32,000 nucleotides of DNA, taken from contig NC_011979.1 of the NCBI RefSeq assembly GCF_000022265.1, forward strand, positions 1,050,001 through 1,082,000, read 5' to 3'. How positions within the stretch are numbered: the first letter of the stretch is position 1; each line of letters begins with the position of its first letter. The notes beneath the pieces were generated by a model. The model did no database searches. It was not told the origin of the DNA and saw nothing but the letters and a program-made list of their open reading frames with translations. This DNA is from Geotalea daltonii FRC-32 (GTDB lineage: Bacteria > Desulfobacterota > Desulfuromonadia > Geobacterales > Geobacteraceae). The translations under genes were made by a program, and so were the position numbers. Of this stretch, positions 18,219-32,000 are shown piece after piece.

Positions 18219-18233
18219 AATCCATTGTGTGGC

Positions 18234-18833: not shown

Positions 18834-18863
18834 GGATCTATCAAGGGGAAAAAGGAGATTTTT

Positions 18864-19271: not shown

Positions 19272-20434
19272 GTGCGCCGGTGAAACCGGCGAGAGATAGT
19301 GAGTGAAAGTCTCATACGATGAAGGAGTAGCGAACCGCATCGGCCCCGAGTCATGCGCAGTCGTCCGTGAGGACGGCTGCGAAGCGTTGACAGGGGGGAT
19401 GTGGGCCAGGTATTGAGCCGCGAAAAGACCCTCATCCGGGGTGCCGACGCCATCGAGGGCAGCGGAAGGCAAAACGGGATGTCTCGTAAGCGCGAGAAGC
19501 ATTCCGACCCCGCGTGGTCTTAGACCCTGCGCACGCATGCAAGTCTCCCGCACGGGAACCGGGATATCCTGCGATTGGCCATTACGGATGGCATAATGGT
19601 CCGTGCCGTGAATTCTATGAAGCACGACGGCGATGCACGGTCGCGGGAAGTCGGACAGTTCCATAGTACCGAAGAAGCCCTCGAACAAAGGTTATGGTGC
19701 GCCACGGCCAGCGGAGGGGGTGGAGGGAAGGGGACTGGCCGAAGGGAATGCGTTGTTGCAAAACAGGCACTGAACACAGCGTCAGAAAAGGAATCGGAAT
19801 GGACAGCCGTAATAGGGCACAAAACGGGAAACCGCAGCAACAGCCAACGGCAAGCTCCCATAGCCGCTCCATAGACCTGCAAAGCGCGCGGCAACGCATA
19901 CGGCAGAAAGCCTTGGCAGATAAAGGTTTACGGTTCACAACACTCTGGCATCACGTCTATCACATCGACCACCTCCGGGAATCTTACTACAACTTAAAGC
20001 GGCACGCCGCACCGGGAGTGGACGAACAGACGTGGCAGCAGTACGGGGAGGACCTGGAAGGAAACCTTCAAGACCTCTCCAACCGGCTGCGGCGCGGAGC
20101 GTACCGGGCGAAGCCGGTCAGAAGGACATATGTCCCCAAATTAGATGGCAGCCAGAGACCAATCGGCATTCCCGCACTGGAAGACAAGATCGTCCAGCGC
20201 GCCACCGTAGAAGTCCTGAACTGCATCTACGAGGCCGATTTCAAAGGCTTCTCGTATGCATTTCGACCCAAGCGCAGCCAGCATAATGCGCTGGATGCGC
20301 TTACGGTCGGCATCACCACGAAGAAGGTGAGCTGGGTGCTTGATGCAGACATACGTGGATTTTTCGACGCCATCGACCACGCATGGCTGATGAAGTTCAT
20401 CGAGCACAGAATCGCGGACCAGCGCGTTATCCGT
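19272..20434 (+). mobile_element. Group II intron, 5' fragment (domains I-III region plus the start of the domain IV ORF); 3' half missing
   Basis: GTGCG at 19272 matches the intron 5' consensus. About 530 nt of non-coding, structured-looking sequence precedes the RT ORF. No YADD, maturase or domain V/VI sequence follows. Confidence 0.8.
19799..20434 (+). pseudogene. Group II intron reverse transcriptase/maturase, truncated after RT block 4
   Basis: RPIGIPALEDKIVQRA, FSYAFRPKRSQHNALDAL and WVLDADIRGFFDAIDHAWLMKFIEHRIADQRVIR are RT blocks 2-4. Similarity stops at about 20434 and the frame runs into unrelated sequence. RT5-7 (YADD) and the X domain are absent. Confidence 0.85.
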
Positions 20435-20819
20435 CATAAGGACTCAACCTTATTTCATGGGTGTACAAGTCGCCATGATTTTTCCCGGCACAGCCCTCAC
20501 AATCACGCGGGCCGTTAAAGCTGTAACTGTTCACGCCGCCGTACATAAGATGGATTCGTCGGTCGTGAAATGGTCCGAGTAAAGAGAGGTGGATTTCGAG
20601 CGTTCTGGCTTCGTTTCGATTGCCTTTTCCACTCTCTTTTATGGTGCACGTTTCCAGCCACGCATCATGCAGAGACGTAGGTGACTGGAGATCAAAATAC
20701 TTTGCGTCGGATGCAAATGCATAGACGTGCGCAGGCAGTCTATCTTTGATTGTGAGAAGGTATTCTTGGTACCCATGGAAGTCGATGCTGTCTGAGTCCG
20801 ACTTAAGAATGTGTTCCAT
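20427..20819 (-). CDS. Cassette ORF, hypothetical (polymorphic-toxin immunity-protein-like pattern, tentative); 3' end probably altered at the intron junction
   Basis: 130 aa, with AGGAAA before the ATG at 20819. The ...LHDAWLETCTI... segment resembles Imm-type proteins (weak). The last codon and the TAA stop lie in RT-derived sequence. Confidence 0.55.
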   Translation of the reverse strand: MEHILKSDSDSIDFHGYQEYLLTIKDRLPAHVYAFASDAKYFDLQSPTSLHDAWLETCTIKESGKGNRNEARTLEIHLSLLGPFHDRRIHLMYGGVNSYSFNGPRDCEGCAGKNHGDLYTHEIRLSPYDG

Positions 20820-20832
20820 TTTCTTTTTCCTG

Positions 20833-20897
20833 TGCCAACGGTGTGGGGGCGCAGCGGCGGAGCGTTAGCGGAGACCGCTGCCGCCTACTGGTTGTGC
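20833..20897 (-). other. attC recombination site
   Basis: Minus strand: R'' GCACAAC ... R' GTTGGCA. Internal pairing cagcgg/ccgctg. 65 bp. Confidence 0.8.
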
Positions 20898-20898
20898 C

Positions 20899-21426
20899 TT
20901 AGTTGCATCCCTCGATATACTGGATGGACTCGAACTTCCCTGATCTGAAGCTTGTAACCTTTCCCTTCTCAGTCTCAAAAATGAATCCGTAGCCGGGCTT
21001 CAGCTTGATGATCAGATACTTTCCGTCCTCTTCGAGATAGGGATGTGCCTGCTCTTTTACTTTTCCTGGGAAGGCCTTTTTTACTGATGCTTCGGTGTCA
21101 CCGACTCGTAAACCGTGGATCGACGCAAATTTTCTTGATGTGATGTCTATTCTGCTAATTCTCTCTTCTTCAATCATGAACCCGATGTCACCATACTTCC
21201 CGTCGGGGTAGACGTAGTAGCACTCCTCGTTCCCTGAATCTGATGGTTCTGTCTCTTTCAGCTTTATTCCTGATTTTTCCGAGGCCTCTTTAACTGTCAT
21301 TCCGACAGCTATTGGGCCAAGACGATCAACCTGCAATTGTTGCTTTTCCAGTTTTTTCAGGTCAGTGGCAAAGGCAAGGCTGGTGGTAAGAAATAGGCTA
21401 GCGATGACAACGCCGGAGATTCTCAT
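20899..21426 (-). CDS. Cassette ORF, exported hypothetical protein
   Basis: MRISGVVIASLFLTTSLAFA signal peptide. ATG at 21426 is preceded by AAAAGGAAAG. The tracked start at 21447 lies inside the attC. Confidence 0.65.
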   Translation of the reverse strand: MRISGVVIASLFLTTSLAFATDLKKLEKQQLQVDRLGPIAVGMTVKEASEKSGIKLKETEPSDSGNEECYYVYPDGKYGDIGFMIEEERISRIDITSRKFASIHGLRVGDTEASVKKAFPGKVKEQAHPYLEEDGKYLIIKLKPGYGFIFETEKGKVTSFRSGKFESIQYIEGCN

Positions 21427-21443
21427 TTTCTTTCCTTTTAATT

Positions 21444-21506
21444 GCACAACGGCTGAGAGCGCACCAGCGGAGCGTAGCGGAGACTGTGTGTCGCGCTTTG
21501 TTGGGA
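21444..21506 (-). other. attC recombination site
   Basis: Minus strand: R'' TCCCAAC ... R' GTTGTGC. 63 bp. The centre is related to the attCs at 20833, 27750 and 29917. Confidence 0.8.
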
Positions 21507-21525
21507 GTTCGTGTCGTTTCGCTGT

Positions 21526-21873
21526 TTAGAACTTCCTTTTTATGAATTTCAGATAATATCCTAAGCAAATACAGAATAATGCAAACAGAACTAAATATAT
21601 TTGAATTAAATGAGGAATCTTTTTTACAACCAACATTAATATGCAAATCAGTAAGTAGCCTATTAGCTTTGAATACTTCTTACTGAACTCAGTCATTTCA
21701 TATAGATTGAACTTTATCGCAAGCCATGCCACTGGTAGAAAACAAAGCAAAGGAACGCTTACTACTTTAAGCGACCCACTTACTGAACCAGTCTCATGGA
21801 AAATGATAAATGGCATAAATGTGATGCCGAGTGCTATAAGGACTCCCAAAAACTTTTTTTCACTTAACTCCAT
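21526..21873 (-). CDS. Small polytopic membrane protein, paralog B (third gene of the large cassette)
   Basis: MELSEKKFLGVLIALGITF... has about 4 hydrophobic helices and is very AT-rich. It is paralogous to 21930-22292 (IKFNLYEMTEFSKKYSKL..VVKKIPHLIQIYL versus IKYKLFIMSEADKKYSQI..VTKKIPDTIKMYL). Confidence 0.7.
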   Translation of the reverse strand: MELSEKKFLGVLIALGITFMPFIIFHETGSVSGSLKVVSVPLLCFLPVAWLAIKFNLYEMTEFSKKYSKLIGYLLICILMLVVKKIPHLIQIYLVLFALFCICLGYYLKFIKRKF

Positions 21874-21929
21874 GCCACACCTCATAGGGGTTGGAGTTGT
21901 TGGTGCTGTTTGGTGTTTTTTTCAAACAG

Positions 21930-22292
21930 TTATAGTTTATTTTCATTTTTGACTCTATTTTTTGTTATTAAATATAGGAAAAGACAAATTGTTTCATATG
22001 AAATTACCAGCAAATACATTTTTATTGTATCAGGTATCTTCTTTGTCACTGACATCATAATGCACATGACTATGATAAAGATGATTTGAGAATATTTTTT
22101 ATCAGCCTCAGACATTATAAATAGTTTATATTTTATTACTATAAAAGCTAATGGCATAAATATTATAGTGGGAGCAATTATCATAGTTACTATGTCATAA
22201 ACTGACTTTATTTTGTACGGCACTACAATCATCATAGAAATAGTAAAAAATATTGTAATTAATTTAAGAAATCTGATGGCTTTTTCGTCCAT
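21930..22292 (-). CDS. Small polytopic membrane protein, paralog A (second gene of the large cassette)
   Basis: 120 aa with about 4 hydrophobic helices. Its ATG overlaps the stop of the 1032-aa ORF as TAATG (22290-22294). Confidence 0.7.
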   Translation of the reverse strand: MDEKAIRFLKLITIFFTISMMIVVPYKIKSVYDIVTMIIAPTIIFMPLAFIVIKYKLFIMSEADKKYSQIIFIIVMCIMMSVTKKIPDTIKMYLLVISYETICLFLYLITKNRVKNENKL

Positions 22293-25200
22293 TAGCCTAC
22301 CTCATACTTTCTTCTCAACCGAAGGTGACTTTCATTTATCCTTTGAATTAAAAACGCCTTAAGCATATTCATGCCTATAGCTATTCCAATTGATACCACA
22401 ATTGGCAGTGCTGGAAAGGCAAGAGCCAAAGCTACACCCAGCACCAGAAATGACGAAATTATTAAATAAGAGCTGAGCCATTTATAAGGGTCTACGTCTG
22501 GATTAGAGTTGATTTGATTTAGATCCTGAAACCATTGCACAACAGAAAATACAACTCCAAACATCTTTACTACATTTTGAAATACTTTAACAAATTCGGC
22601 ACTAATGCCATTTTTCAGTATGTCCAGTCTAAATCCAACCAATAGGCTAATGCCATCGACTAAACTCAATTTACTGTCGTCTACCGGCACGTTCGAGCCA
22701 TTTAGCCCGCCACCTATCATATACGCGCCTTCGCCGGTTGTCGGGTTCGTGATGATATATCCGCAGCCTGTCCACCCTTTAAAAGTGATGTCAGTTTTTG
22801 AAACAGTAACTACCTTCCCAGCATTTACGGCATTCTGAATATCTGTCTTTACCTGCGCGTCCACCTGAAGCTGCGGCAGGATGCTGGCAATGTTCGACTG
22901 GTTTACGGTGTAAATCGGTATACCCAAGTCATTGGCTATGTTCAGGGCTTTAACTGCCGAGACTCCTTCAACAGGTGCGGCAGGGGTGGAGAACAGTTGC
23001 TCCGGTACAGCGTGTTCCAAAGCCGAAGAGTTCATTCCCGTCGCCAAGAGGTACTGAACTTTTGCTGCCTCATCACCGTTAAGCGCCTTGTTCACGGAAA
23101 CATTCCTGTCAACGTCCATGACAAGCCCGCCGGAGCTTACACTGCGAGGTATTCCGAAAAACATATTCACCGCGACATCGGAAGAGAAGATGGCCTCCGA
23201 TGGATACCGCGCAGACGCCATACCCATCGTAGATGCCTGAACAAAATTCATTACATCGAGTTGAGCATAGTAGGTTAAAGCAGTGGAATAGAGAATATCG
23301 CCTATGATGTCATCTTTAGTGAGCCCGGATACTTCCTGGGCTTCGAGCTTTGCTTTAGTGTCCGCCATCTTTGCTTTTAGCCCGAGGAGTTGTGCCTGTG
23401 CTACCCTTCCAGTATCCAGGGCGATTGCGTTAAATGCCCCTGCAAATATCGGGTTCGAGACGATCTCAGATGAATAGGCGGGGCTGGAAAACGTCATATC
23501 AAAGGTTTCAATGGCACCGAGGGTAACTGGCGTGCCTGTCGCCACCACCTGCCCATCAATTCGAAGTTCTGGCTTTACTTTGATGAGATATGCGGGAAGA
23601 GATGAAGGAAGTTCGTTCGGCTGTATAGGTGTGCCGTCTGCATGTGGCTGTGGAAGATATGAGTTAATGACTGCTTCATCTTGGGGGGTGGCAGGTGAGT
23701 AGCTGAGGGTGATCTTCTTGCCAGCCAGTTCAGGCAGGGCCTTTGTTATGTTCAGGGATGTGTCTATAACGGTGGCATCCGGATCTATTAACGATAGATC
23801 GACAGAATCACTCCTGACGTTGAAAGACAGATTATGCCGATAATTATCAGGTAGTTCAGCAAACGCTACTCCCCGCATTGCGCCTCGGTACGGTAACGTG
23901 CCGAGCAAATAGGGGTATTCTTTCTTGTCTATCTCCTTCTTGCCAAGCACATCGCCAATCGCGGCATTGGGATGGTTTTGCTGGAGGTAGGTCTGCACCC
24001 TGGATTGATAATCCTGTAGTGTTTGCTGGGTGAGGAGGGAATTTAGGCCTGTTGCGTAGCCAGCGGTTTCGTTGATGGTGGCGGTAGATTTGATCTGGTT
24101 GACAAATGTCTGTGTGTCAAAGGGAACGGCGGTCTTTATGTCGATCCCATTGGTGTAAATGTACTGCTTATAGCTGGCGTCAAGGCTTATCCACGTGTCC
24201 CCTTTTCCGGTTTTGTGTTTCGCTCCGCGTGAAGGCCTGTAGTTAATCCAGGCGTCCACCCAGACGTGCTCCATTCTAACTGCTACTATTTTGCCGCTGG
24301 TAACCAGCCCTTTCGTCGGCATCCCGCCGCTGGACATGTAATCAAGGGCCGCCATAGGGTCGGTGAAACCACCTGCCCAGTTCATGACTTTCTCAATGGG
24401 AAGTTCTATGGTGCCTGTGACGTAGCGGGCATGGATGCCGGAAGCACGCAGGAGCGCAATGAGAAGAGACGCCGTGTCAATGGCGTTTCCCTGTTTGGTG
24501 AGAAGGGTTTGGTTGGCACCCTGAATGGAGCCCCAGGTGGGGACAAATTCGACGTTATTCCGCACCCACTCGTAAATCTTGACGGGCTTGTACTCAAGTT
24601 CCTGGGCCTTGGCTCTGATTTCCGGGGTTAGCTGGACTTCAATTGTTTCAGCAAGATCAGCAGGTCCGGCAGGTTCTTTTTTGAGTGGAGTAGTTGCGGT
24701 GACGGTGCTTGTCGTGAGTAACCCGGCCAAGGAGCCGGCCGAGGCGACCAAAATTCGCTTCTGGTCTCTCCAAGACGTCTGGTTTTTCTTTATGTCTTTC
24801 TCGAATTCTTCCTTGTTGAGTCTTGGCTCCCGCTTCTTAACTTTAGGTTGCCGGTGCGGGAGATTGTTGGGATCAAAGGGTTTATGTTTTTTCTCTACCT
24901 TGACCTTTTTCAGGTGTTTTACAGCCTTGTCAATCTCCGCTTCGGCTTCTGCTTTGTCTTTGGCCTTTTCGATCCGGTCGATGTTTCCCTTCAACTCGGT
25001 GAGATTGTCATCATAGTGTTTGACGAACTTGTAATGCCGCTGGAGGACTTCATCAGGTAGCTTCGCGTCTTTGAGCTTCTTTTCCGTCTCGGCGAACTGT
25101 TTGCGGATTTCCTTGTCTGCTGTTTCTATTTCAGTTTTAGCGGCCTTCAGCCGCTCTTTCTTGGTTTCAATATCCGCCTTGGTGTCAGCTAGGCTCGCTT

Positions 25201-25390
25201 GCAGCTCTTCCGTGGTTTTTGCAAACCGCTCCTCAGGACCAGCGGGTTTTTTCTTGTGCTGCTCCTTCGACTTTTCTTTCTTTATGGCGTCCTGCGCGGC
25301 ACTAGCAATGCTGAATACTCCGCAACCCGTCCATGTGAAGAAGCACAGTACGACTACCGCTATTACCTTTGAATATCTACGAAACATCAT
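22292..25390 (-). CDS. 1032-aa lipoprotein-like protein: coiled coil + transglutaminase-like core (Cys position = Ala) + large unassigned region + C-terminal hydrophobic helices
   Basis: GAGGAGGAG lies before the ATGATG at 25390. Lipobox-like FTWTGC. K/E-rich residues ~35-205. GNAIDTASLLIALLRASGIHARYVTG / MEHVWVDAW / WISLDAS match the transglutaminase core spacing. The C-terminus has LIISSFLVLGVALALAFPALPIVVSIGIAIGMNML. Confidence 0.85.
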   Translation of the reverse strand: MMFRRYSKVIAVVVLCFFTWTGCGVFSIASAAQDAIKKEKSKEQHKKKPAGPEERFAKTTEELQASLADTKADIETKKERLKAAKTEIETADKEIRKQFAETEKKLKDAKLPDEVLQRHYKFVKHYDDNLTELKGNIDRIEKAKDKAEAEAEIDKAVKHLKKVKVEKKHKPFDPNNLPHRQPKVKKREPRLNKEEFEKDIKKNQTSWRDQKRILVASAGSLAGLLTTSTVTATTPLKKEPAGPADLAETIEVQLTPEIRAKAQELEYKPVKIYEWVRNNVEFVPTWGSIQGANQTLLTKQGNAIDTASLLIALLRASGIHARYVTGTIELPIEKVMNWAGGFTDPMAALDYMSSGGMPTKGLVTSGKIVAVRMEHVWVDAWINYRPSRGAKHKTGKGDTWISLDASYKQYIYTNGIDIKTAVPFDTQTFVNQIKSTATINETAGYATGLNSLLTQQTLQDYQSRVQTYLQQNHPNAAIGDVLGKKEIDKKEYPYLLGTLPYRGAMRGVAFAELPDNYRHNLSFNVRSDSVDLSLIDPDATVIDTSLNITKALPELAGKKITLSYSPATPQDEAVINSYLPQPHADGTPIQPNELPSSLPAYLIKVKPELRIDGQVVATGTPVTLGAIETFDMTFSSPAYSSEIVSNPIFAGAFNAIALDTGRVAQAQLLGLKAKMADTKAKLEAQEVSGLTKDDIIGDILYSTALTYYAQLDVMNFVQASTMGMASARYPSEAIFSSDVAVNMFFGIPRSVSSGGLVMDVDRNVSVNKALNGDEAAKVQYLLATGMNSSALEHAVPEQLFSTPAAPVEGVSAVKALNIANDLGIPIYTVNQSNIASILPQLQVDAQVKTDIQNAVNAGKVVTVSKTDITFKGWTGCGYIITNPTTGEGAYMIGGGLNGSNVPVDDSKLSLVDGISLLVGFRLDILKNGISAEFVKVFQNVVKMFGVVFSVVQWFQDLNQINSNPDVDPYKWLSSYLIISSFLVLGVALALAFPALPIVVSIGIAIGMNMLKAFLIQRINESHLRLRRKYEVG

Positions 25391-25441
25391 CTCCTCCTCG
25401 CCGTTGAAATCATTTCATTATTTATGGTTCTCTTTCAATTC

Positions 25442-25497
25442 TCTCAACGGGCCGGGAGATCACCGGCCATCAGGCCGGTGTATCTTCCTGGTTATCT
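25442..25497 (-). other. attC recombination site
   Basis: Minus strand: R'' AGATAAC ... R' GTTGAGA. Internal pairing ccggcc/ggccgg. 56 bp. The upstream ORF ends inside it. Confidence 0.75.
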
Positions 25498-25862
25498 GCT
25501 CGTTTTGAAACATCTATTTCGTCGCTCTGATGGATATCAACAATGAAAGAACCAATGATAACAAAGACCGCCATGGTCATTACAAAATACACATGATGAA
25601 TCAAGCTTCTAAAGGTGAGTCCGTAGATCATGTAGGTAATCAGCCATCCAGCAGCAATAAACAGTCTTATTATTCTATTTGATTCATATTTTCTTCGTAT
25701 TAAATACAAGCCGACATCAAGGCTAAGAGCAATTGACCAAGTCGCAAGGATTATTTGCATTGACCTTGCTCGTTCCGCGCTATCCCACACTATAAGCAGG
25801 CACAACACATATGAGAGCCCGATCGCCGTTAGGAATTTTCTTTTTTCCGATTTGCTTGTCAT
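25470..25862 (-). CDS. Cassette ORF, 4-TM membrane protein
   Basis: 130 aa with four hydrophobic segments. GAAGGAAATC lies before the ATG at 25862, directly after R' GTTATCT. Confidence 0.65.
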   Translation of the reverse strand: MTSKSEKRKFLTAIGLSYVLCLLIVWDSAERARSMQIILATWSIALSLDVGLYLIRRKYESNRIIRLFIAAGWLITYMIYGLTFRSLIHHVYFVMTMAVFVIIGSFIVDIHQSDEIDVSKRADNQEDTPA

Positions 25863-25872
25863 GATTTCCTTC

Positions 25873-25940
25873 AGATAACGGTAGTGAGGCGCTGCGGCGC
25901 GGAGTCTTTTCCCGCGACCGTCAGCCGCCGATGGTTATGC
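25873..25940 (-). other. attC recombination site
   Basis: Minus strand: R'' GCATAAC (contains the TAA stop of 25935-26300) ... R' GTTATCT. 68 bp. Confidence 0.8.
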
Positions 25941-26300
25941 GCGTTTGTCGGCAAGCATACGGTAGCAATCTTCTCGTATTGATGCTGTCCTATCCAAGAA
26001 ATACTCAAGATTCGATTTGTCCAGGCAAAGCACTCGATTCTCGCTTATGCAATCAAGACTTATGAGGATTTCTGAAATTGCTTTCAGTCTCTCGTGTATG
26101 TCCTCCGACTCCTTGGGCCAGAATACCCCCAAAACCTTTTCCTTCTCGAAGTACCGAGTTCCCAGCTCCAAATTCTCGCTTTTATAGAAAGTAATTGTAT
26201 TCACTCCGTTGTTCCATTTTGGAGGGAAAAGAACAAGGATCGGCTCAAATTCCTTCCGAGTTAACGTATGCCTACAGCCGTTTTGGATTACCAGTTTCAT
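25935..26300 (-). CDS. Cassette ORF, hypothetical soluble protein
   Basis: 121-aa ORF with its stop embedded in the attC R''. No recognisable motif. Weak RBS. Confidence 0.55.
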   Translation of the reverse strand: MKLVIQNGCRHTLTRKEFEPILVLFPPKWNNGVNTITFYKSENLELGTRYFEKEKVLGVFWPKESEDIHERLKAISEILISLDCISENRVLCLDKSNLEYFLDRTASIREDCYRMLADKRA

Positions 26301-26401
26301 AATCTGCTCACATCACCTAGGCCAGGAACTCCTGGTCTATCAATCTTTGAAGAGTCGATTCGCGATGCCGAAATATCCAATACCCGCTAAGCTTAAAGAA
26401 A

Positions 26402-26575
26402 TTATGCATATCGCTTGTTATTTGTGATTCCAAAAGTAAGGCCAATTGCGATAACTCCAACGAATCCAAAGAGCAATGCTACTCCAACCTTATTGGCTTC
26501 TTTTTTGGATATTGTGGTCCCGCTGAAGCCGACCTTGTAATCGTGTTTATCTTTATTCTTCATTTTTTCTCGCAT
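26402..26575 (-). CDS. Small ORF with one C-terminal TM helix (start 26575 or 26563)
   Basis: MREKMKNKDKHDYKVGFSG...VGVALLFGFVGVIAIGLTFGI. The tracked N-terminal extension (to 26638) runs through the attC-like palindrome. Confidence 0.4.
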   Translation of the reverse strand: MREKMKNKDKHDYKVGFSGTTISKKEANKVGVALLFGFVGVIAIGLTFGITNNKRYA

Positions 26576-26633
26576 AATGGCGCGGCAGTTGACCGGGCGG
26601 TGTTTTTCGGCCCGGTCAACTGTCTTGTTGGAG
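26572..26633 (-). other. attC-like site with a degenerate core
   Basis: Minus strand: R'' CTCCAAC ... R' ATTATGC (A in place of the core G). The stem cagttgaccgggc/gcccggtcaactg is a perfect 13 bp with no bulge. Confidence 0.5.
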
Positions 26634-26642
26634 TTCACCTAT

Positions 26643-27197: not shown

Positions 27198-27206
27198 CCT
27201 TTTTCC

Positions 27207-27257
27207 TTCCAACGGCTGAGAGCACAGCGGGTTCACCGCTGTTGCGCTTGGTTATCT
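27207..27257 (-). other. attC recombination site
   Basis: Minus strand: R'' AGATAAC ... R' GTTGGAA. Internal pairing cagcgg/ccgctg. 51 bp (short). Confidence 0.75.
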
Positions 27258-27273
27258 GAAAAATGCAGTATTG

Positions 27274-27735: not shown

Positions 27736-27749
27736 GCATTATTCCTTTC

Positions 27750-27812
27750 AGATAACGTCACAAGGCGCACCGGCGGAGCGGAGCGTAGACCGCGTGCCGC
27801 CGCGTGTTGAGC
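27750..27812 (-). other. attC recombination site
   Basis: Minus strand: R'' GCTCAAC ... R' GTTATCT. 63 bp. Confidence 0.8.
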
Positions 27813-27818
27813 ATTCCC

Positions 27819-28238
27819 TTACTTGTTGTAACCATTGGTGATGATATCGGGATTCAGCTTCTGCAACTCAGTTGTCAACGACTCAGGATTATTTATAAGA
27901 TTTGTGATTCTAATCGCTCCTTTATTAGTAATGATCTTTATGACCATCAAGCCATCATGTATTTCTGAAATGTCAGTAGCATAAAGCGTTTTCCTCCGCA
28001 GGATGGACCTGCATAACAAGGTTCCGCTCTTATAAATTTCAACTCTATGCGCAGTAAAAAAAAGGAAATACCAATAGATCGGCAGCATAAACGGGAGCAT
28101 CAATGTTGTTGCATGTCTGCCTGAGTAAGGGGGGAAGGCAACCCAGAGGGAAATTAAGAACAGCACTGCATAAACAATTCTTAACGCTACTGATGTCTCG
28201 AAAGTCTTTACTTCTTGTTCCATTCGTTTTCTTTCCAT
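27819..28238 (-). CDS. Cassette ORF, 2-TM membrane protein with a small soluble C-terminal domain
   Basis: Two hydrophobic helices (ALRIVYAVLFLISLWVAF, LMLPFMLPIYWYFLFF). The start is more likely the ATG at 28223, because 28238 is 1 nt from the attC R'. Confidence 0.6.
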   Translation of the reverse strand: MERKRMEQEVKTFETSVALRIVYAVLFLISLWVAFPPYSGRHATTLMLPFMLPIYWYFLFFTAHRVEIYKSGTLLCRSILRRKTLYATDISEIHDGLMVIKIITNKGAIRITNLINNPESLTTELQKLNPDIITNGYNK

Positions 28239-28239
28239 T

Positions 28240-28291
28240 GCTCAACGCCATAAGCCTGACCGGCTGCGGCCGGTCTTGGCGCTGGTTAGCT
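28240..28291 (-). other. attC recombination site
   Basis: Minus strand: R'' AGCTAAC (contains the TAA stop of 28286-28948) ... R' GTTGAGC. Internal pairing gaccggc/gccggtc. 52 bp. Confidence 0.8.
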
Positions 28292-28948
28292 GTGGGGGTT
28301 GATTTTAAAGATGTGATCTTTTGTTTTCTTACCGAAGCTGATTTCTATGTCAGACATTTCCCGTGTTATCTCTAGAATTTGTTCTCGCGGCAATCCCGTT
28401 TTCTTCATGATTCGGTGAATAGTCGTCCACTCGAAACTGCTACTATCGATAACATCTCGAATCAAAGTCTGTATATCACGTGAAGGCTCTTGTTTCTCCT
28501 CGGCAACAGGGACGACAACTGCGGTCTCGGTTGGTTCGACAGCGGCTGCCTTGTCGGTAAGATCTTCTATCTTCGCGCCTAACTCTTCTATGTTCTTCTC
28601 ACGCTCTTTTGCATTTATTTCGTATTTTGACCTCAGTTCATTTAGTTCTTCATGCGTCTTCTTTATCTCAGCATGTAGTGCTTGTGCGTCAGTTAGTAAT
28701 TTTTTTAATTCAGTAGTTGACTCATTAATCGAGGCATGTGCTTTTCTAACATCGAATCCAAAGAAAGCAACTCCCAATATTGCTAGAATTGTAACGAATC
28801 CTCCACCAATCCAGACTGCAGCCTTAAAAAACTTCACTGCGTCTTCCGTTAGGTTTAGGGTGACTTGAGCTGGTGGCGCATCAACTGCAAAAGCAGCAGT
28901 CGCAACAAAAATCAGCACTAGCACTAGCAGCATATATATTCTTCTCAA
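28286..28948 (-). CDS. Cassette ORF: signal/TM + TM + coiled coil + C-terminal winged-helix-like module
   Basis: TTG start at 28948, 8 nt after GAGGAGG. Hydrophobic segments YMLLVLVLIFVATAAFA and AVWIGGGFVTILAILGVAFFGF. Heptad-like segment ELKKLLTDAQALHAEIKKTHEELNELRSKYE. C-terminal FEWTTIHRIMKKTGLPREQILEITREM. Confidence 0.6.
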   Translation of the reverse strand: MRRIYMLLVLVLIFVATAAFAVDAPPAQVTLNLTEDAVKFFKAAVWIGGGFVTILAILGVAFFGFDVRKAHASINESTTELKKLLTDAQALHAEIKKTHEELNELRSKYEINAKEREKNIEELGAKIEDLTDKAAAVEPTETAVVVPVAEEKQEPSRDIQTLIRDVIDSSSFEWTTIHRIMKKTGLPREQILEITREMSDIEISFGKKTKDHIFKINPHS

Positions 28949-28969
28949 CTTTCAACCTCCTCTTGTATC

Positions 28970-29029
28970 AGTTAACGCCTGAGAGCACAGCGGCGGGCTT
29001 CATCCGCTCGCTGTTGCGCGTGGTTGGAC
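28970..29029 (-). other. attC recombination site
   Basis: Minus strand: R'' GTCCAAC ... R' GTTAACT. 60 bp. The centre is close to the attC at 27207. Confidence 0.8.
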
Positions 29030-29030
29030 T

Positions 29031-29426
29031 TTATGTCTTTTTCAGTTTCTCATATGTCTGCCAAAAGCATTTTTTGTATGCCGAATACGCTCTCGCTACG
29101 TCATTTTCTGTTACATCTTCCTCGATTGCTGAGGCACCGACCATCGTCTCGAACTTCTTCGCCACCATGTTCCAGCTTTTCATCAATGTCTTCGATTTTT
29201 TTGTCAGGTTTTTCCTTAGCTCGATGCCTTCTTCCGTCAGTGAGTATTTCTTCCCGACCTTACACACCAATCCCTGTTGGATAAGCCAACCCAAGCTTGT
29301 TTGTAGCTCCTTGTGAGTCGGGATCGCGTGGTTGAGGCCGTCAGCCGTCGCAATGACTTCCTGCAACGACGCAGGCTTTTCAGGTACCGACAGAAATATC
29401 CAACTGTAAGTTTCCGATTCGTTCAT
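29031..29426 (-). CDS. Cassette ORF, small winged-helix-like protein
   Basis: MNESETYSWIFLS... The tracked start at 29549 crosses the attC, so the ATG at 29426 was chosen. TSLGWLIQQGLVCKVGKKYSLTEEG resembles a wHTH wing. Confidence 0.55.
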   Translation of the reverse strand: MNESETYSWIFLSVPEKPASLQEVIATADGLNHAIPTHKELQTSLGWLIQQGLVCKVGKKYSLTEEGIELRKNLTKKSKTLMKSWNMVAKKFETMVGASAIEEDVTENDVARAYSAYKKCFWQTYEKLKKT

Positions 29427-29437
29427 TTTTTTCTTTT

Positions 29438-29499
29438 GTACAACGTCACAAGCCTGACCAGCGGAACGAAGTGGAGACTGGTCTAGGCGCAAGTTATAC
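29438..29499 (-). other. attC recombination site
   Basis: Minus strand: R'' GTATAAC ... R' GTTGTAC. Internal pairing gaccag/ctggtc. 62 bp. Confidence 0.8.
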
Positions 29500-29607
29500 A
29501 TTTCTCTCCACTTTGGGAGGTAATAATGAACACTGTAAGAAAGGCCCAAGAGTTTCTTCTTAGACCTATAAAAAATTTCATAATCAACACAGTAGCAGAG
29601 GCGCTGA

Positions 29608-29865
29608 CTAGGCGGGAAACTCGTCTACGTCAATCTGTAAGGTTTGTTTTGCCTGATTCAGAATATACGTGTAGATTTCGTTAAGAGTTTTGTCTTGAAG
29701 TTCTCGCTTAAGGTAGTGAATTGTTATTTGTGTATTAGATATTTCAGCTTCATCTGTAGGCCTACTTAAACTAACAGTTGCTGTTATTTCAGTTAGTTCT
29801 TCTCCTGCAAACTTAGATGGTTGGTAGCAAAGTTTGATCATTGCGATTTCGGTTGCCATACTCAT
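29608..29865 (-). CDS. Cassette ORF, hypothetical 85-aa protein
   Basis: ATG at 29865 is preceded by GAGGAGGAA. The tracked GTG start at 29901 is less likely. No motif recognised. Confidence 0.5.
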   Translation of the reverse strand: MSMATEIAMIKLCYQPSKFAGEELTEITATVSLSRPTDEAEISNTQITIHYLKRELQDKTLNEIYTYILNQAKQTLQIDVDEFPA

Positions 29866-29916
29866 TTCCTCCTCTTGGGTAATTGTGCCTTGGTGGAGCA
29901 CTTTTTAATTTTTGAT

Positions 29917-29980
29917 GTATAACGTCTCAAGGCGCCAGCGGCGGAGCGCCAGCGAAGACCGCTGTCGCCGCTGGTTAGGC
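29917..29980 (-). other. attC recombination site
   Basis: Minus strand: R'' GCCTAAC (contains the TAA stop of 29975-30445) ... R' GTTATAC. 64 bp. Confidence 0.85.
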
Positions 29981-30445
29981 ATTCTCGCCGAAGATATGCG
30001 CAATCAAATTCCTATAAATTGGTAAAGCATTTCCGCCAGGGTTTATCACTACTCCGTCATACGAACCTGTTTGAACATAGCTGCTTACTTGGTTGCTTGG
30101 CATTATTAGTCCTGAAAAATGGGACGGAGCGTAGTTCTGGAACTCTTTCCAGTCAGTGAATAGAGTCAATAATCGTCGGTTGTCTGAGTCTTGGACTTCA
30201 AGAATTCCAAACTTGCTCCCCTTCTGAATTTCTATTTCACCTTTTCCAATTTCTTGTTTATTGAGCCCTCTCTCGTCAATAGCGGCCAGGAATACAGCCT
30301 TTCGTATTGCCTCCACTAACTCCACCGTGCTTTCGTTTGAGTTGTGATTTGCGTGATTTTGAATTGCGGCCACTAGATCCGGATTTTCAACTGGCTTGTT
30401 TACGTCAATATTCGATCCGCTACTTTTTTTCTTAAATGGCCACAT
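29975..30445 (-). CDS. Cassette ORF, SseB-like family protein
   Basis: ...LLTLFTDWKEFQNY......YDGVVINPGGNALPI matches the SseB-type pattern. AAGGA lies before the ATG at 30445. Confidence 0.55.
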   Translation of the reverse strand: MWPFKKKSSGSNIDVNKPVENPDLVAAIQNHANHNSNESTVELVEAIRKAVFLAAIDERGLNKQEIGKGEIEIQKGSKFGILEVQDSDNRRLLTLFTDWKEFQNYAPSHFSGLIMPSNQVSSYVQTGSYDGVVINPGGNALPIYRNLIAHIFGENA

Positions 30446-30460
30446 AGTTATCCTTTTTTT

Positions 30461-30533
30461 GCCTAACGGCTTGCGCCCTTGACCCGCCCGGGGCGTTTCT
30501 CAGCCCCGGTCGGTGTCCAAGGGCCTGTTGGAT
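30461..30533 (-). other. attC recombination site
   Basis: Minus strand: R'' ATCCAAC ... R' GTTAGGC (both fit RYYYAAC / GTTRRRY). Pairing cccttgac/gtCcaaggg has one extra base, and ccgggg/ccccgg also pair. 73 bp. Confidence 0.85.
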
Positions 30534-30563
30534 GCTTTCTTTCCTCATGTAGTTCAGCCGTGC

Positions 30564-31013
30564 TCATTTTCGACTTTTTAAGCGCTGCTGGACATTTCTT
30601 GTAATCAATAGAGTCATGAGTCCTAATACGACAGAGACCGCCATTTCATGCCATTTCATCGCCTTTAACACGAATTTCATCGGTTCTTTGATCCCTTGGT
30701 ATCTTGTGATGTCCCATAAAATCAAAATCGGTAAAACCACCGTTGAAAGCAGCAAAACAGTTGATGTGCCCAAGTAGGTAAGAGGGCCAATTAACGCTGC
30801 TACTGCGACAGCTAATACGAGCATTATCAAGAGGATGTATTGTTCAGCAGAAGTCATAACCGGCACTACAAGAACGAAAACCGTTATCACTCCATACGCG
30901 ATCGACGCACGTTTCCAACTCCACTTCTCGCTTTTATTACTCATTTTGTCGATGAGCGGAGGAATGGTCATGCATACGAGGATAGTTATCAAACTGCCAT
31001 AGACTGGAATCAT
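30564..31013 (-). CDS. Cassette ORF, polytopic membrane protein
   Basis: MIPVYGSLITILVCMTIPPL... has 4-5 hydrophobic helices. ATG at 31013 follows GAGGGG. The tracked TTG at 31028 lies inside the attC R'. Confidence 0.6.
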   Translation of the reverse strand: MIPVYGSLITILVCMTIPPLIDKMSNKSEKWSWKRASIAYGVITVFVLVVPVMTSAEQYILLIMLVLAVAVAALIGPLTYLGTSTVLLLSTVVLPILILWDITRYQGIKEPMKFVLKAMKWHEMAVSVVLGLMTLLITRNVQQRLKSRK

Positions 31014-31022
31014 TTTCCCCTC

Positions 31023-31086
31023 ATCCAACGGTTTCGGCGCTGAGCGGCGCGGCGAAGCTGCGTCCGTCTCTAGTGCATGGTTATGC
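31023..31086 (-). other. attC recombination site
   Basis: Minus strand: R'' GCATAAC (contains the TAA stop of 31081-31431) ... R' GTTGGAT. 64 bp. Confidence 0.85.
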
Positions 31087-31431
31087 GGCCTCGCTCTTAT
31101 AAAACTTATACAGAGACCAGGGCCAGAGCAGCACGAATATTAGGACCATCGACATCTGGACCGCAGCAAGGATAAATATCGTGATAGATACAGTGACGGC
31201 TATCAGTTGGCTTTTTTTGCTTAATTTTGTAGGCACAAGCAACGCAACGGCTATTCCTAGTGAAAAGAATCCTGCTACAAGAAGGAACATGATTTTGGGA
31301 CTTGTGGGGGCAATGGCCATAAATTCCCTCAAGCCTGCCGCATTTATGATAATTGCAACTGCACCGACATTACCAACTGCGGAAAGAACGCTCATCATGG
31401 CTGCAAATTTTCTTGGGTTGTCAGATTTCAT
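31081..31431 (-). CDS. Cassette ORF, small polytopic membrane protein
   Basis: 116 aa with 3-4 hydrophobic helices. GGAG lies before the ATG at 31431, directly after R' GTTATGC. Confidence 0.6.
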   Translation of the reverse strand: MKSDNPRKFAAMMSVLSAVGNVGAVAIIINAAGLREFMAIAPTSPKIMFLLVAGFFSLGIAVALLVPTKLSKKSQLIAVTVSITIFILAAVQMSMVLIFVLLWPWSLYKFYKSEAA

Positions 31432-31440
31432 TTTTTCTCC

Positions 31441-31501
31441 GCATAACGTGTATGAGGCGCACCCGCCGCGTCAGCGGTCGGTGTGCCGCCGAGAGTTGGA
31501 C
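31441..31501 (-). other. attC recombination site
   Basis: Minus strand: R'' GTCCAAC ... R' GTTATGC. 61 bp. Confidence 0.85.
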
Positions 31502-31502
31502 A

Positions 31503-31952
31503 TCAGTACTTTGCCGTATTTAGCCATTTAATCTCATCGGCCACGAATGCCTGCGATGCGGTAATTTCGACTTCTACATATTCTTCTTTTAGCTTTTCAT
31601 ATGGATCTGCTGATAGCAAAAGGTACTGCTTCTGATTTCCATACATGAAGCCGACATGGTCAAATCTGGTTTTTATTCCGTCTTTGGTTTTCAAGATAGC
31701 AGCAACTTTAATCTTGTCTCCATTCGGTGCTACCAGCGCCCAGCCTTTGGATTTCTGCTTGTACGCTGACGGAACTGCAATTAGCAGAAAGTTGAATGGG
31801 TACTTTGTTGTTCTGATGGGTTTTGACGGTCTTATCGTCAATGTATTTTCAGTCACCTTCTCAGATTTATTCGAAATTACAACTTCCTCTTCGGAGGTTG
31901 AAGCACACGAAATAAGCAAGCCCGCCAAAAGGAGGAAAAGCATTTTTTTCAT
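31503..31952 (-). CDS. Cassette ORF, lipoprotein
   Basis: MKKMLFLLLAGLLISC has a lipobox. AAGGAAAAAG lies before the ATG at 31952. Confidence 0.65.
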   Translation of the reverse strand: MKKMLFLLLAGLLISCASTSEEEVVISNKSEKVTENTLTIRPSKPIRTTKYPFNFLLIAVPSAYKQKSKGWALVAPNGDKIKVAAILKTKDGIKTRFDHVGFMYGNQKQYLLLSADPYEKLKEEYVEVEITASQAFVADEIKWLNTAKY

Positions 31953-31966
31953 TCTTTTTCCTTGTC

Positions 31967-32000
31967 GTCCAACGGCGGCTCGGCATGACCTGCGCGGCAG
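31967..32000 (-). other. attC recombination site (partial, runs off the window)
   Basis: Minus strand: R' GTTGGAC at 31967-31973, preceded by a GC-rich arm. The R'' side lies beyond base 32000. Confidence 0.6.

What the first reader, a model, noticed from the sequence alone, without database searches (positions are those of the whole stretch)
20427..32000. Integron gene-cassette array: 15 attC sites punctuate 11.5 kb of co-oriented minus-strand ORFs
Nearly every gap between the minus-strand ORFs holds a 51-73 bp imperfect palindrome. Read on the minus strand, each begins with an inverse-core-like heptamer ending in AAC (GTCCAAC, GCCTAAC, ATCCAAC, GCTCAAC...). Each ends with a core-like GTTRRRY heptamer (GTTAGGC, GTTGGAT, GTTGAGC...). 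The RBS and start of the next ORF follow within a few to ~60 nt. Four ORFs use the TAA inside R'' as their stop, and one ORF ends inside the palindrome. Twelve units are 0.4-0.75 kb with a single ORF. This is the organisation of integron cassettes, and G+C drops sharply compared with 1-19 kb. No tyrosine recombinase lies in the window. Given the cassette orientation, attI and intI should lie to the right of base 32000, with intI probably on the + strand.
Basis: partly seen in the sequence, partly recalled or inferred. Interest (0 to 1): 0.8.

Follow-up and report, generated by a model that had tools for sequence, protein, structure and literature searches.

The report
Known Geotalea daltonii integron cassette array
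This stretch is a genuine integron gene-cassette array (a row of small mobile genes, each ending in a folded recombination site) in the chromosome of the metal-reducing bacterium Geotalea daltonii FRC-32; the array was already noted in the literature, so it is a textbook example, not a discovery.

Summary
On the minus strand, 20.8-32.0 kb holds 14 complete attC sites of 51-73 bp plus a 15th cut by the window edge. They delimit 14 complete cassettes (13 of 418-730 bp, one of 3,998 bp) and a truncated terminal one.

The sites pass four tests of attC identity:
- A stem with compensatory changes, and bulges only on the 3' arm of the bottom strand.
- The R'' box of each site is complementary to the R' box of the preceding site (52/56 variable bases, against 12/56 for its own R').
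- A model trained on them finds bona fide class 1 attC sites.
- A near-identical strain differs by whole cassettes, with breakpoints at G|TT.

Exact protein look-ups place the window in Geotalea daltonii FRC-32 (Geob_0973 to Geob_0993). Léon and Roy (2010) already list the group IIC-attC intron lying 2.3 kb to the right as inserted into an integron cassette array.

The left end is not an attC. It is a deletion junction at 20435-20438 that fuses a truncated cassette to a 3'-truncated, unrelated group II intron.

I could not reach intI or attI, so whether this is a complete integron or an integrase-less cluster stays open. Novelty: already known. Interest: low.

The parts
31967..32000 (-). attC 'a', cut by the window edge. 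The full site is L001:2219-2293. R' is GTTGGAC.
   Evidence: The full site scores 41.0 bits with model R1 (it was in the training set). Its bottom strand folds at z = -5.4 with three 3'-arm bulges.
31503..31952 (-). Cassette ORF, 149 aa (Geob_0993), with a lipoprotein-like N-terminus. No Pfam family.
31441..31501 (-). attC 'b' (R'' GTCCAAC, R' GTTATGC)
   Evidence: 46.6 bits
31081..31431 (-). Cassette ORF, 116 aa, membrane-like. Its stop is the TAA inside R'' of attC 'c'.
31023..31086 (-). attC 'c' (R'' GCATAAC, R' GTTGGAT)
   Evidence: 61.1 bits
30564..31013 (-). Cassette ORF, 149 aa, membrane-like. No Pfam family.
30461..30533 (-). attC 'd' (R'' ATCCAAC, R' GTTAGGC)
   Evidence: (z = -3.9); 41.6 bits
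29975..30445 (-). Cassette ORF, 156 aa, SseB family (Geob_0990). Its stop is the TAA inside R'' of attC 'e'.
   Evidence: (PF07179, E 4.5e-18)
29917..29980 (-). attC 'e' (R'' GCCTAAC, R' GTTATAC)
   Evidence: 60.8 bits
29608..29859 (-). Cassette ORF, 83 aa. No Pfam family.
29438..29499 (-). attC 'f' (R'' GTATAAC, R' GTTGTAC)
   Evidence: 58.0 bits
29031..29426 (-). Cassette ORF, about 131 aa from ATG 29426. Automatic calls start it at 29501 and so read through attC 'f'. It has a weak winged-helix match.
28970..29029 (-). attC 'g' (R'' GTCCAAC, R' GTTAACT)
   Evidence: 48.2 bits
28286..28933 (-). Cassette ORF, 215 aa, with a signal or membrane anchor and a coiled coil. Its stop is the TAA inside R'' of attC 'h'.
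28240..28291 (-). attC 'h' (R'' AGCTAAC, R' GTTGAGC)
   Evidence: 46.2 bits
27819..28223 (-). Cassette ORF, 134 aa, membrane-like. No Pfam family.
27750..27812 (-). attC 'i' (R'' GCTCAAC, R' GTTATCT)
   Evidence: 60.5 bits
27274..27735 (-). Cassette ORF, 153 aa, pyridoxamine 5'-phosphate oxidase-like flavoprotein
   Evidence: (PF12900, E 3e-24)
27207..27257 (-). attC 'j' (R'' AGATAAC, R' GTTGGAA)
   Evidence: (z = -3.3); 43.0 bits
26643..27188 (-). Cassette ORF, 181 aa, TPR-like lipoprotein. The strain behind L005 also carries this cassette (99.7% identical).
26572..26633 (-). attC 'k' (R'' CTCCAAC). Its R' is ATTATGC, with A in place of the crossover G. The stem is perfect, with no bulges. 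L005 has G at this position.
   Evidence: (z = -5.2); 40.1 bits
25935..26563 (-). Two-ORF cassette: 53 aa (26402-26563) and 121 aa (25935-26300). The whole cassette is absent from the array of L005.
25873..25940 (-). attC 'm' (R'' GCATAAC, R' GTTATCT)
   Evidence: 54.7 bits
25470..25862 (-). Cassette ORF, 130 aa, membrane-like. It ends inside the loop of attC 'n'. L005 shares this cassette (99.8% identical).
25442..25497 (-). attC 'n' (R'' AGATAAC, R' GTTGAGA)
   Evidence: (z = -6.0); 40.4 bits
21526..25387 (-). The three genes of the single 3,998-bp cassette: a 1031-aa transglutaminase-like protein (22292-25387) and two paralogous small membrane proteins (21930-22292 and 21526-21873, 34% identical). 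No internal attC.
21444..21506 (-). attC 'o' (R'' TCCCAAC, R' GTTGTGC)
   Evidence: 65.5 bits
20899..21426 (-). Cassette ORF, 175 aa, with a signal peptide. No Pfam family.
20833..20897 (-). attC 'p', the last attC of the array (R'' GCACAAC, R' GTTGGCA)
   Evidence: 61.4 bits. Identity with L005 and L006 starts at its CGTTGGCA.
20436..20832 (-). Truncated terminal cassette (Geob_0976). Residues 1-127 match a family of about 157 aa. The last three codons and the stop come from the intron remnant. Its own attC (expected R'' TGCCAAC) is deleted.
19299..20435 (+). 5' 1.1 kb of a second, unrelated group II intron, 3'-truncated inside its reverse-transcriptase gene. It forms the distal border of the array and is not part of the integron itself.
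   Evidence: RF02005, 191 bits; RVT_1 positions 1-99 of 205. The same junction appears in independent assemblies L003-L006.

Best explanation
Window 20.4-32.0 kb is the distal part of the chromosomal integron cassette array of Geotalea daltonii FRC-32 (Geob_0976 to Geob_0993).

Anatomy (shown). Each unit is a largely promoterless cassette: usually one ORF, followed by an attC site. The array ends on the left at a truncated cassette that has lost its attC. That cassette is fused by a deletion to a 3'-truncated group II intron lying next to the chromosomal HxlR and SnoaL genes.

Recombination (inferred from established integron biology). The bottom strand of an attC, here the window's + strand, folds into a hairpin: an R box (AAC/GTT), an L-box stem, and extrahelical bases on its 3' arm. 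An integron integrase (IntI) recognises this fold and cuts between the G and TT of GTTRRRY. Recombination between two attC sites excises a cassette as a circle. Recombination of that circle with attI or with another attC reinserts it.

Left-end consequence (inferred). The terminal cassette can no longer be excised.

Right side (shown from the overlapping contig L001). The array continues with one more cassette (Geob_3856). The attC upstream of that cassette is split by a group IIC-attC intron inserted antisense to the cassettes.

Expression (inferred). That intron carries the outward promoter P1out predicted by Léon and Roy. P1out, not a distant Pc promoter, would be the nearest promoter reading into the cassettes of this window.

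Open. Whether an intI gene and an attI site follow further to the right was not determined.
For: Identity of the locus:
- Exact-sequence look-ups give Geob_0973, 0976, 0990 and 0993 of G. daltonii FRC-32.
- Contigs L001-L004 are 100% identical to the window.

attC structure:
- In 15 aligned bottom strands, 93.8% of cells are paired, against 73.8% after shuffling (0 of 500 shuffles reach it) and at most 43% when the partners are slid.
- 8 of the 10 L-box pairs show compensatory changes.
- Within the L-box stem, the alignment columns left unpaired lie only on the 3' arm. One holds a base in all 15 sites and a second in 7 of 15.

Cassette boundary rule:
- R'' matches the reverse complement of the preceding R' at 52/56 variable bases, against 12/56 for its own R'. 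No permutation out of 100,000 reached that.

Specificity and generality of model R1:
- In the window it hits only the 14 sites, on one strand apart from a weak reverse-strand echo of one of them.
- It gives 7 hits in the unseen array L005, one per intergenic gap.
- It finds the attC sites of blaVIM-2 (24.4 bits, E 9e-4) and aadA5 (21.6 bits, E 0.005). It finds those of aac(6')-Ib4 and aac(3)-Ia weakly (E about 0.3). All four are in the expected place and on the expected strand in class 1 integrons.

Mobility:
- L005 and L006, from other samples, are 100% identical to the window from CGTTGGCA leftwards and unrelated upstream of it.
- L005 lacks the cassette between attC k and attC m, with the switch inside [G/A]TTAT.

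Intron to the right:
- The reverse transcriptase is 100% identical to that of FRC-32.
- The 5' exon is an attC bottom strand that ends in ...GGT.
- The motif TTGCCT-17 nt-TACGCT lies at intron positions 74-102, exactly as in Table 3 of PMC3001079. That table marks this intron as inserted into an integron cassette array.
Against: - No integrase gene, attI site or Pc promoter was seen. There is none in the window and none in the 2.3 kb available to the right.
- Site k has A in place of the crossover G and has no bulges.
- Site o folds poorly on its own (z = +0.6).
- Model R1 was trained on these same sites, so its hits in the window are true by construction. It also missed 2 of the 6 class 1 attC sites.
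- The IntegronFinder attC model itself could not be run.
- Cassette expression and IntI activity are inferred, not measured.
Confidence: 0.95

Rival explanations
1. The array is a CALIN, that is, a cluster of attC sites with no integrase nearby. This could be a remnant whose intI was lost or split off. Its cassettes would then move only if an IntI encoded elsewhere acts on them.
For: - There is no tyrosine recombinase in the 20 kb to the left, in the array, or in the 2.3 kb to the right.
- An IntI search seeded with the closest available relative (Trichloromonas) showed no G. daltonii protein among its best 120 hits.
- CALINs outnumber complete integrons in complete genomes: 279 against 164 (PMC4889954).
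- In Geobacter sp. DSM 9736, a 92%-identical intron has no IntI gene within 10 kb.
Against: - Whole-cassette differences between strains that are 99.7-100% identical imply recent IntI activity.
- Only 6.6% of CALINs have more than 10 attC sites, and this array has at least 16.
- In seven related loci, IntI lies 3' of the intron on the same strand.
- The sequence where intI would be expected was simply not available.
Confidence: 0.4
2. The palindromes are not recombination sites. They are ordinary intergenic repeats (REP-like elements) or rho-independent terminators that separate small genes.
For: - They are G+C-rich hairpins that sit just after stop codons.
- Some individual folds are no better than shuffled sequence: sites f, i, o and p have z between -1.3 and +0.6.
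Against: - Terminators and REP elements do not carry AAC/GTT end boxes whose variable bases match the neighbouring site and not their own partner.
- They would not show one-sided bulges with compensatory stem changes.
- They would not let a model trained on them pick out class 1 attC sites.
- They would not mark the exact breakpoints of cassette gain and loss between strains.
- No run of T follows the hairpins.
Confidence: 0.01
3. The left boundary heptamer GGATAAC (20426-20432) is the R'' box of a final attC, cut there by a group IIC-attC intron insertion. The array would then end in an intron-split attC, like the one on the right.
For: - The heptamer fits nnnnAAC.
- Its complement reads GT/TATCC, which is the point where IIC-attC introns insert (TTGT/T, PMC7923331).
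- The adjoining DNA is a group II intron on the expected strand.
Against: - The cassette begins with TTGGCA, so its R'' should be TGCCAAC. GGATAAC matches none of the four variable bases.
- Reverse-transcriptase homology runs through R247 (20432-20434), so the heptamer is the antisense of reverse-transcriptase codons.
- The cassette protein is cut at residue 127 of about 157.
- What abuts the heptamer is the middle of the reverse-transcriptase gene, not an intron 3' end.
- The junction region has no attC-like fold and gives no R1 hit.
Confidence: 0.02

Closest known systems
Chromosomal (sedentary-type) integron cassette arrays, for example the Vibrio cholerae superintegron and the integrons reported in Geobacter metallireducens and G. 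lovleyi
   Same: - Co-oriented, mostly single-ORF cassettes of 0.4-0.7 kb.
- Each cassette ends in an attC with RYYYAAC and GTTRRRY boxes, a covarying stem and extrahelical bases.
- Cassette genes are mostly of unknown function.
- G+C is lower than in the host genome.
- The array differs between strains at the level of whole cassettes.
   Different: - The attC sites are only about 55% identical to one another, so they are much less uniform than Vibrio VCR repeats.
- intI and attI were not seen.
- The distal end is sealed by a deletion into a group II intron remnant.
Group IIC-attC introns (S.ma.I2 lineage; Léon and Roy 2009/2010; Quiroga and Centrón)
   Same: - The element 2.3 kb to the right (5' end at L001:1757) lies antisense to the cassettes.
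- It is inserted at GT/T of the R'' complement of an attC bottom strand.
- It encodes a reverse transcriptase/maturase.
- It matches Rfam RF02001.
- It carries the published P1out motif at intron positions 74-102. It is the very intron listed for CP001390.
   Different: None found. It is the catalogued member. Its 3' end and 3' exon were not available.
CALIN elements (Cury et al. 2016)
   Same: At least 16 attC sites, with no intI in any of the sequence examined.
   Different: - It is far larger than a typical CALIN: 83% of CALINs have fewer than 6 attC sites.
- The side where intI would be expected could not be read, so the defining absence of intI is not established.
Class 1 mobile integrons (pJB12 and pEC1, used here as controls)
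   Same: The attC architecture is the same. A model built from the window's sites recognises the attC sites of blaVIM-2, aadA5, aac(6')-Ib4 and aac(3)-Ia.
   Different: - No resistance genes, no Tn402 or 3'-conserved segment context, and a chromosomal location.
- The class 1 sites score much lower (14-24 bits) than the local sites (40-65 bits).

Membership tests
Integron gene-cassette array (attC sites) | Imperfect palindromes of roughly 50-150 bp, bounded by R'' (RYYYAAC) and R' (GTTRRRY) | tested here: met
   There are 14 complete sites of 51-73 bp. AAC is invariant. GTT is present in 14 of the 15 R' boxes; site k has ATT.
Integron gene-cassette array (attC sites) | Conserved secondary structure with little sequence conservation: a paired L box supported by covariation | tested here: met
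   Mean column identity is 55%. 93.8% of cells are paired, against 73.8% after shuffling and at most 43% when the partners are slid. 8 of 10 stem pairs show compensatory changes.
Integron gene-cassette array (attC sites) | Extrahelical bases on one arm only, the 3' ('') arm of the bottom strand. These set the polarity of recombination. | tested here: met
   Within the L-box stem, the alignment columns left unpaired lie only on the 3' arm. Column 60 holds a base in all 15 sites, including k. Column 56 holds one in 7 of 15. In single-sequence folds most sites show the 3'-arm bulges, but site k folds as a perfect stem without any bulge. That the bulged arm is the '' arm in known attC sites rests on my recollection of MacDonald 2006 and Bouvier 2009; I did not read those papers here.
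Integron gene-cassette array (attC sites) | Cassettes are units joined at G|TT, so R'' of each site is complementary to the TTRRRY that begins its own cassette, i.e. to the R' of the preceding site. | tested here: met
   52/56 variable bases match the preceding R', against 12/56 for the site's own R'. No permutation out of 100,000 reached that. The same rule holds in an unrelated cassette copy, L094: GTTAGGT upstream and ACCTAAC downstream.
Integron gene-cassette array (attC sites) | Recognition by an attC covariance model | tested here: inconclusive
I ran the reciprocal test instead. Model R1, built from the window's sites, finds 4 of 6 class 1 attC sites in the right place and on the right strand, two of them only at E about 0.3. 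It also finds 7 of 7 gaps in the unseen array L005.
Integron gene-cassette array (attC sites) | Cassettes behave as mobile units: present or absent between strains, with breakpoints at the core site | tested here: met
   Compare the window with L005 and L006. The terminal cassette and its flank are 100% identical from CGTTGGCA onwards, and the upstream cassettes differ. The cassette between attC k and attC m is absent from L005, with the switch in [G/A]TTAT.
Complete integron | An intI gene (a tyrosine recombinase with the IntI-specific insertion) next to the first cassette, divergently oriented | not testable with these tools
   The source genome is withheld from the searchable collections. 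Contigs stop inside the intron 2.3 kb to the right. There is no IntI in the window or in L001.
Complete integron | An attI site and a Pc promoter upstream of the first cassette | not testable with these tools
   Same limitation. In addition, attI sequences are not conserved outside classes 1-3.
CALIN | [quoted passage not shown] | tested here: inconclusive
   At least 16 attC sites are present. No intI lies to the left. To the right, only 2.3 kb could be examined, and the array continues beyond the intron.
Group IIC-attC intron (element to the right, in L001) | A class C group II intron with a reverse transcriptase/maturase, inserted in the attC bottom strand at TTGT/T, antisense to the cassettes | tested here: met
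   - Rfam RF02001, 131.5 bits.
- RVT_1 and GIIM domains.
- The 5' exon is an attC (R1 40.9 bits) that ends in ...CTGGT.
- It is listed in PMC3001079 Table 3.
- The 3' splice site was not available.

The most novel reading that the evidence does not exclude
The array is cut off from any Pc promoter by the antisense group IIC-attC intron, or it lacks a neighbouring integrase altogether. In that case the intron's outward promoter P1out is what expresses the cassettes of this window. The fixed terminal remnant (a truncated cassette fused to a dead, unrelated group II intron) is shared at 100% identity by strains with different arrays. It would then serve as a natural anchor for measuring cassette turnover in wild G. 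daltonii populations, and it hints that group II introns repeatedly shape both ends of this array.
Probability: 0.25. Interest if true: 0.35.

Novelty: already known. Interest (0 to 1): 0.15.

Why it matters
It matters little as a discovery. Integron cassette arrays are well understood. Integrons are known in Geobacteraceae (PMC2426708, PMC11434368). This particular array, in a genome published in 2009, is already marked as an integron cassette array in Léon and Roy 2010.

Its value is as a clean worked example:
- All diagnostic features of attC sites can be shown from sequence alone.
- Comparison with metagenome-derived strains shows cassette gain or loss at the canonical G|TT crossover.
- It documents a IIC-attC intron sitting upstream of a long run of cassettes, which is the situation for which intron-borne outward promoters were proposed.

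Tried and rejected
Attempts to reach intI and attI to the right of the window. None succeeded.
- A genome-contig scan with Geob_0993 found no relative.
- The FRC-32 intron protein P0001 is not on record in the contig index. The source genome therefore appears to be withheld.
- A genome-contig scan with the intron reverse transcriptase returned 76 loci, none from G. daltonii.
- An IntI search seeded with the Trichloromonas IntI from L009 showed no G. daltonii entry among its best 120 hits.
- The 92%-identical intron copy in Geobacter sp. DSM 9736 has no IntI within 10 kb.
- Look-ups of Geob_3856 returned only contigs that end in or at the intron.
- Literature searches for FRC-32, daltonii or CP001390 together with integron or intI found no statement about its integrase.
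- The supplements of PMC11434368 and PMC4889954 are not held.

Other things tried:
- My first strict palindrome scan required R'' to match its own R'. It found only one site. This is expected, because R'' pairs with the preceding R'.
- GGATAAC at 20426-20432 as a final R'' box: rejected.
- REP elements or terminators as an explanation: rejected.
- Assembly artefact at the cassette/intron junction: rejected. The junction recurs in four Logan, ENA and JGI assemblies.
- Hidden attC sites inside the 4-kb cassette or in the lower-G+C region at 14-19 kb: none at E <= 1 with filters off.
- DNA of the full-length 158-aa homologue P0401 was not retrievable. More distant homologues were used instead.

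Full report
**1. What is in the sequence**

On the minus strand from 32000 down to about 20430 there is an unbroken run of co-oriented ORFs. Between them I located 14 complete imperfect palindromes of 51-73 bp and a 15th cut by the right edge of the window. Read on the minus strand, each complete site begins with nnnnAAC. Each ends with GTTnnnn, except site k (26572-26633), which ends with ATTATGC.

Measured between the G|TT positions, the cassettes are 526, 418, 562, 544, 479, 468, 730, 490, 543, 635, 699, 431, 3998 and 611 bp long.
- Four ORFs use the TAA inside R'' as their stop (ORF ends 31081, 29975, 28286, 25935).
- One ORF (25470-25862) ends inside a palindrome.
- G+C drops from about 0.55-0.62 in 1-13 kb to about 0.43-0.46 in 25-32 kb.

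**2. Are the palindromes attC sites?**

Four independent lines say yes.

*(a) Structure.* Folded as single-stranded DNA, the bottom strands (the window's + strand) form a stem whose bulges lie on the 3' arm. I aligned 15 bottom strands.
- A 10-bp L-box stem plus the AAC/GTT R box is paired in 93.8% of cells. The shuffled value is 73.8% (0 of 500 shuffles reach the observed value), and sliding the partners gives at most 43%.
- 8 of the 10 stem pairs show changes on both sides.
- Within the stem, the only unpaired alignment columns lie on the 3' arm. One holds a base in all 15 sites and a second in 7 of 15.
- One-sided extrahelical bases on the '' arm are what sets polarity in known attC sites. 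This last point rests on my recollection of MacDonald 2006 and Bouvier 2009.

*(b) The cassette-boundary rule.* IntI joins cassettes at G|TT. R'' of a site should therefore be complementary to the TTRRRY that starts its own cassette, which sits in the preceding site, and not to the R' that follows it.
- R'' matches the reverse complement of the preceding R' at 52 of 56 variable positions.
- It matches its own R' at only 12 of 56.
- No permutation out of 100,000 reached 52.

*(c) Cross-recognition.* I built covariance model R1 from the 15 sites and ran it with filters off.
- In the window it hits only those 14 places, all on the + strand apart from a weak echo (14 bits, E 0.42) of site n on the other strand. 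There is nothing in 1-20.8 kb at E <= 1.
- In L005, an array from another sample that the model never saw, it gives seven hits, one in each intergenic gap.
- In two annotated class 1 integrons fetched as controls, it finds the attC sites of blaVIM-2 (24.4 bits, E 9e-4) and aadA5 (21.6 bits, E 0.005). It finds those of aac(6')-Ib4 and aac(3)-Ia weakly (E about 0.3).
- All four control hits lie just downstream of the gene and on the bottom strand. There are no other hits in those 26 kb.
- It misses the attC sites of aac(6')-Il and dfrA17.

*(d) Mobility.* Contigs L005 (ENA) and L006 (JGI) come from other samples.
- They are 100% identical to the window from CGTTGGCA (the R' of the last attC) leftwards, through the terminal cassette and the flank. 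Upstream of that point they are unrelated.
- L005 also shares two cassettes at 99.7-99.8% identity: the TPR-like protein and the 130-aa protein.
- L005 lacks the two-ORF cassette that lies between those two in the window. The switch falls inside [G/A]TTAT of the R' core.
- So nearly identical strains differ by whole cassettes, exactly at the canonical crossover.

**3. Where the window comes from**

Exact-sequence look-ups of six window proteins return Geotalea daltonii FRC-32 entries, among them Geob_0976, Geob_0990 and Geob_0993 and the SnoaL-like cyclase ACM19335. Logan contigs L001-L004 are 100% identical to the window. The genome itself seems to be withheld from the searchable contig collections.

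**4. The right side**

L001 extends 2.3 kb beyond base 32000.
- It completes attC 'a' and adds one more cassette (113 aa, Geob_3856).
- It then reaches an attC whose bottom strand is interrupted after ...CTGGT by a group II intron on the opposite strand to the cassettes. The intron's 5' end, GTACG, is at L001:1757.
- The intron matches Rfam RF02001 (131.5 bits).
- It encodes a reverse transcriptase/maturase that is 100% identical over 425 aa to the FRC-32 protein.
- The remaining attC part still scores 40.9 bits with R1.
- The motif TTGCCT-17 nt-TACGCT lies at L001:1656-1684, which is intron positions 74-102. This is exactly the P1out entry for 'Geobacter sp. CP001390' in Table 3 of Léon and Roy 2010.
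- That table marks this intron as inserted into an integron cassette array, with a hypothetical ORF as the 5'-exon gene.

The array has therefore been in the literature since 2010. That paper proposes that such outward promoters drive the cassettes downstream of the intron. For this window that is an inference, not a measurement.

**5. intI**

There is no tyrosine recombinase in the window or in L001 (Pfam scans; tblastn with IntI1). Every route to the sequence further right failed.

By analogy the predicted geometry is reasonable.
- In 50 loci from other genomes that carry relatives of this intron, all 35 R1 hits at E < 0.01 lie on the intron's sense strand.
- In seven of those loci, an IntI homologue (43-54% identical to IntI1) lies 3' of the intron on the same strand.
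- In L066, L036 and L028, attC hits lie between the intron and the IntI gene.

Whether FRC-32 really has it there is unknown. I put a complete integron at roughly 55-60% and an integrase-less cluster (CALIN) at roughly 40%. The recent cassette turnover argues that an IntI acts on this array from somewhere.

**6. The left end**

The array does not end in an attC.
- Window 19306-19527 (+) matches Rfam RF02005 (191 bits).
- The ORF 19694-20518 (+) matches only the first half of the RVT_1 profile (positions 1-99 of 205).
- Against full-length relatives, reverse-transcriptase homology runs through ...EHRIADQRVIR (R247 = 20432-20434) and then stops.
- On the other strand, the terminal cassette protein (Geob_0976, 130 aa) matches a family of about 157 aa only up to ...THEIRLSP (residue 127, codon at 20439-20441). 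A 91%-identical 158-aa relative continues for 31 more residues.
- The junction therefore lies at 20435-20438.
- The last three codons, the stop codon and the R''-like heptamer GGATAAC are all antisense reverse-transcriptase sequence.
- The expected R'' for this cassette would be TGCCAAC.
- In L094, a homologue of this gene is an intact cassette, with GTTAGGT upstream and ACCTAAC right after its stop.
- The junction is reproduced in L003, L004, L005 and L006, so it is real and older than the differences between the arrays.
- This intron is only 34% identical in its reverse transcriptase to the IIC-attC intron. It sits after a hairpin downstream of the chromosomal HxlR gene.

**7. Cassette content**

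Content is typical of chromosomal integrons.
- Recognisable products are an SseB-family protein, a PNPOx-like flavoprotein and a TPR-like lipoprotein.
- A 4-kb three-gene cassette encodes a 1031-aa transglutaminase-like protein and two paralogous small membrane proteins.
- The other products have no Pfam family. Many have signal or membrane segments.

**8. Verdict**

The feature is a standard integron cassette array in a published genome and is already noted as such. The fine details appear not to have been described: the sealed distal end, the A at the crossover base of attC k, and the differences between strains. They are minor. Novelty: already known. Interest: low.

Noticed in passing
window 19299-20435 (+): The 5' 1.1 kb of a second group II intron (Rfam RF02005). 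Its reverse transcriptase is only 34% identical to that of the IIC-attC intron. It sits 14 nt after a hairpin (19275-19291) downstream of the HxlR gene. It is cut off inside the reverse-transcriptase gene and fused to the truncated terminal cassette at 20435-20438. How the deletion arose is unexplained.
   Followed up: yes
window 26572-26633 (attC k) compared with L005:279-340: In FRC-32 this attC has A in place of the crossover G (ATTATGC) and a perfect, bulge-free stem. The L005 strain has G there and lacks the next cassette. The mutation may have locked that cassette in place.
   Followed up: partly
window 21450-25447: An unusually large cassette of 3,998 bp with three genes: a 1031-aa transglutaminase-like protein, whose stop overlaps the next start (TAATG), and two small membrane proteins that are 34% identical to each other. 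The last 0.8 kb is only 38-40% G+C, against about 50% for the large gene. No internal attC was detected.
   Followed up: partly
window 29426-29501 and 26563-26638: Automatic gene calls (156 aa starting at 29501; 78 aa starting at 26638) read through attC f and attC k. In-frame ATG codons just after the R' boxes (29426 and 26563) are likelier starts.
   Followed up: partly
L001:1656-1684 and L001:1757: The IIC-attC intron to the right carries the published outward promoter motif TTGCCT-17 nt-TACGCT at intron positions 74-102, pointing into the cassettes of this window.
   Followed up: yes
50 loci among L008-L082 plus L085 (those searched): In 50 loci from other genomes that carry relatives of the IIC-attC intron, all 35 attC-like hits (E < 0.01, 862 kb, both strands) lie on the intron's sense strand. 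In seven loci an IntI gene lies 3' of the intron on the same strand.
   Followed up: partly
Contig 1Ecslaqg of SRR29904083 (no DNA held); corresponds to about L001:1730: In this sample the contig stops about 27 nt inside the intron's 5' end. This could mean that an intron-free allele or further intron copies are present there.
   Followed up: no
window 14000-19000: G+C is also lower here (0.46-0.53) than in 1-13 kb. The region encodes an 808-aa CARDB-repeat protein (14871-17297) and several ORFs with no Pfam family. There are no attC hits. It may be a separate acquired region.
   Followed up: no
window 25-2895: A PLD-like protein (465 aa) and an FRG-domain protein (262 aa) lie at the left end of the window, upstream of the cytochrome bd oxidase genes. 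I did not examine them further.
   Followed up: no
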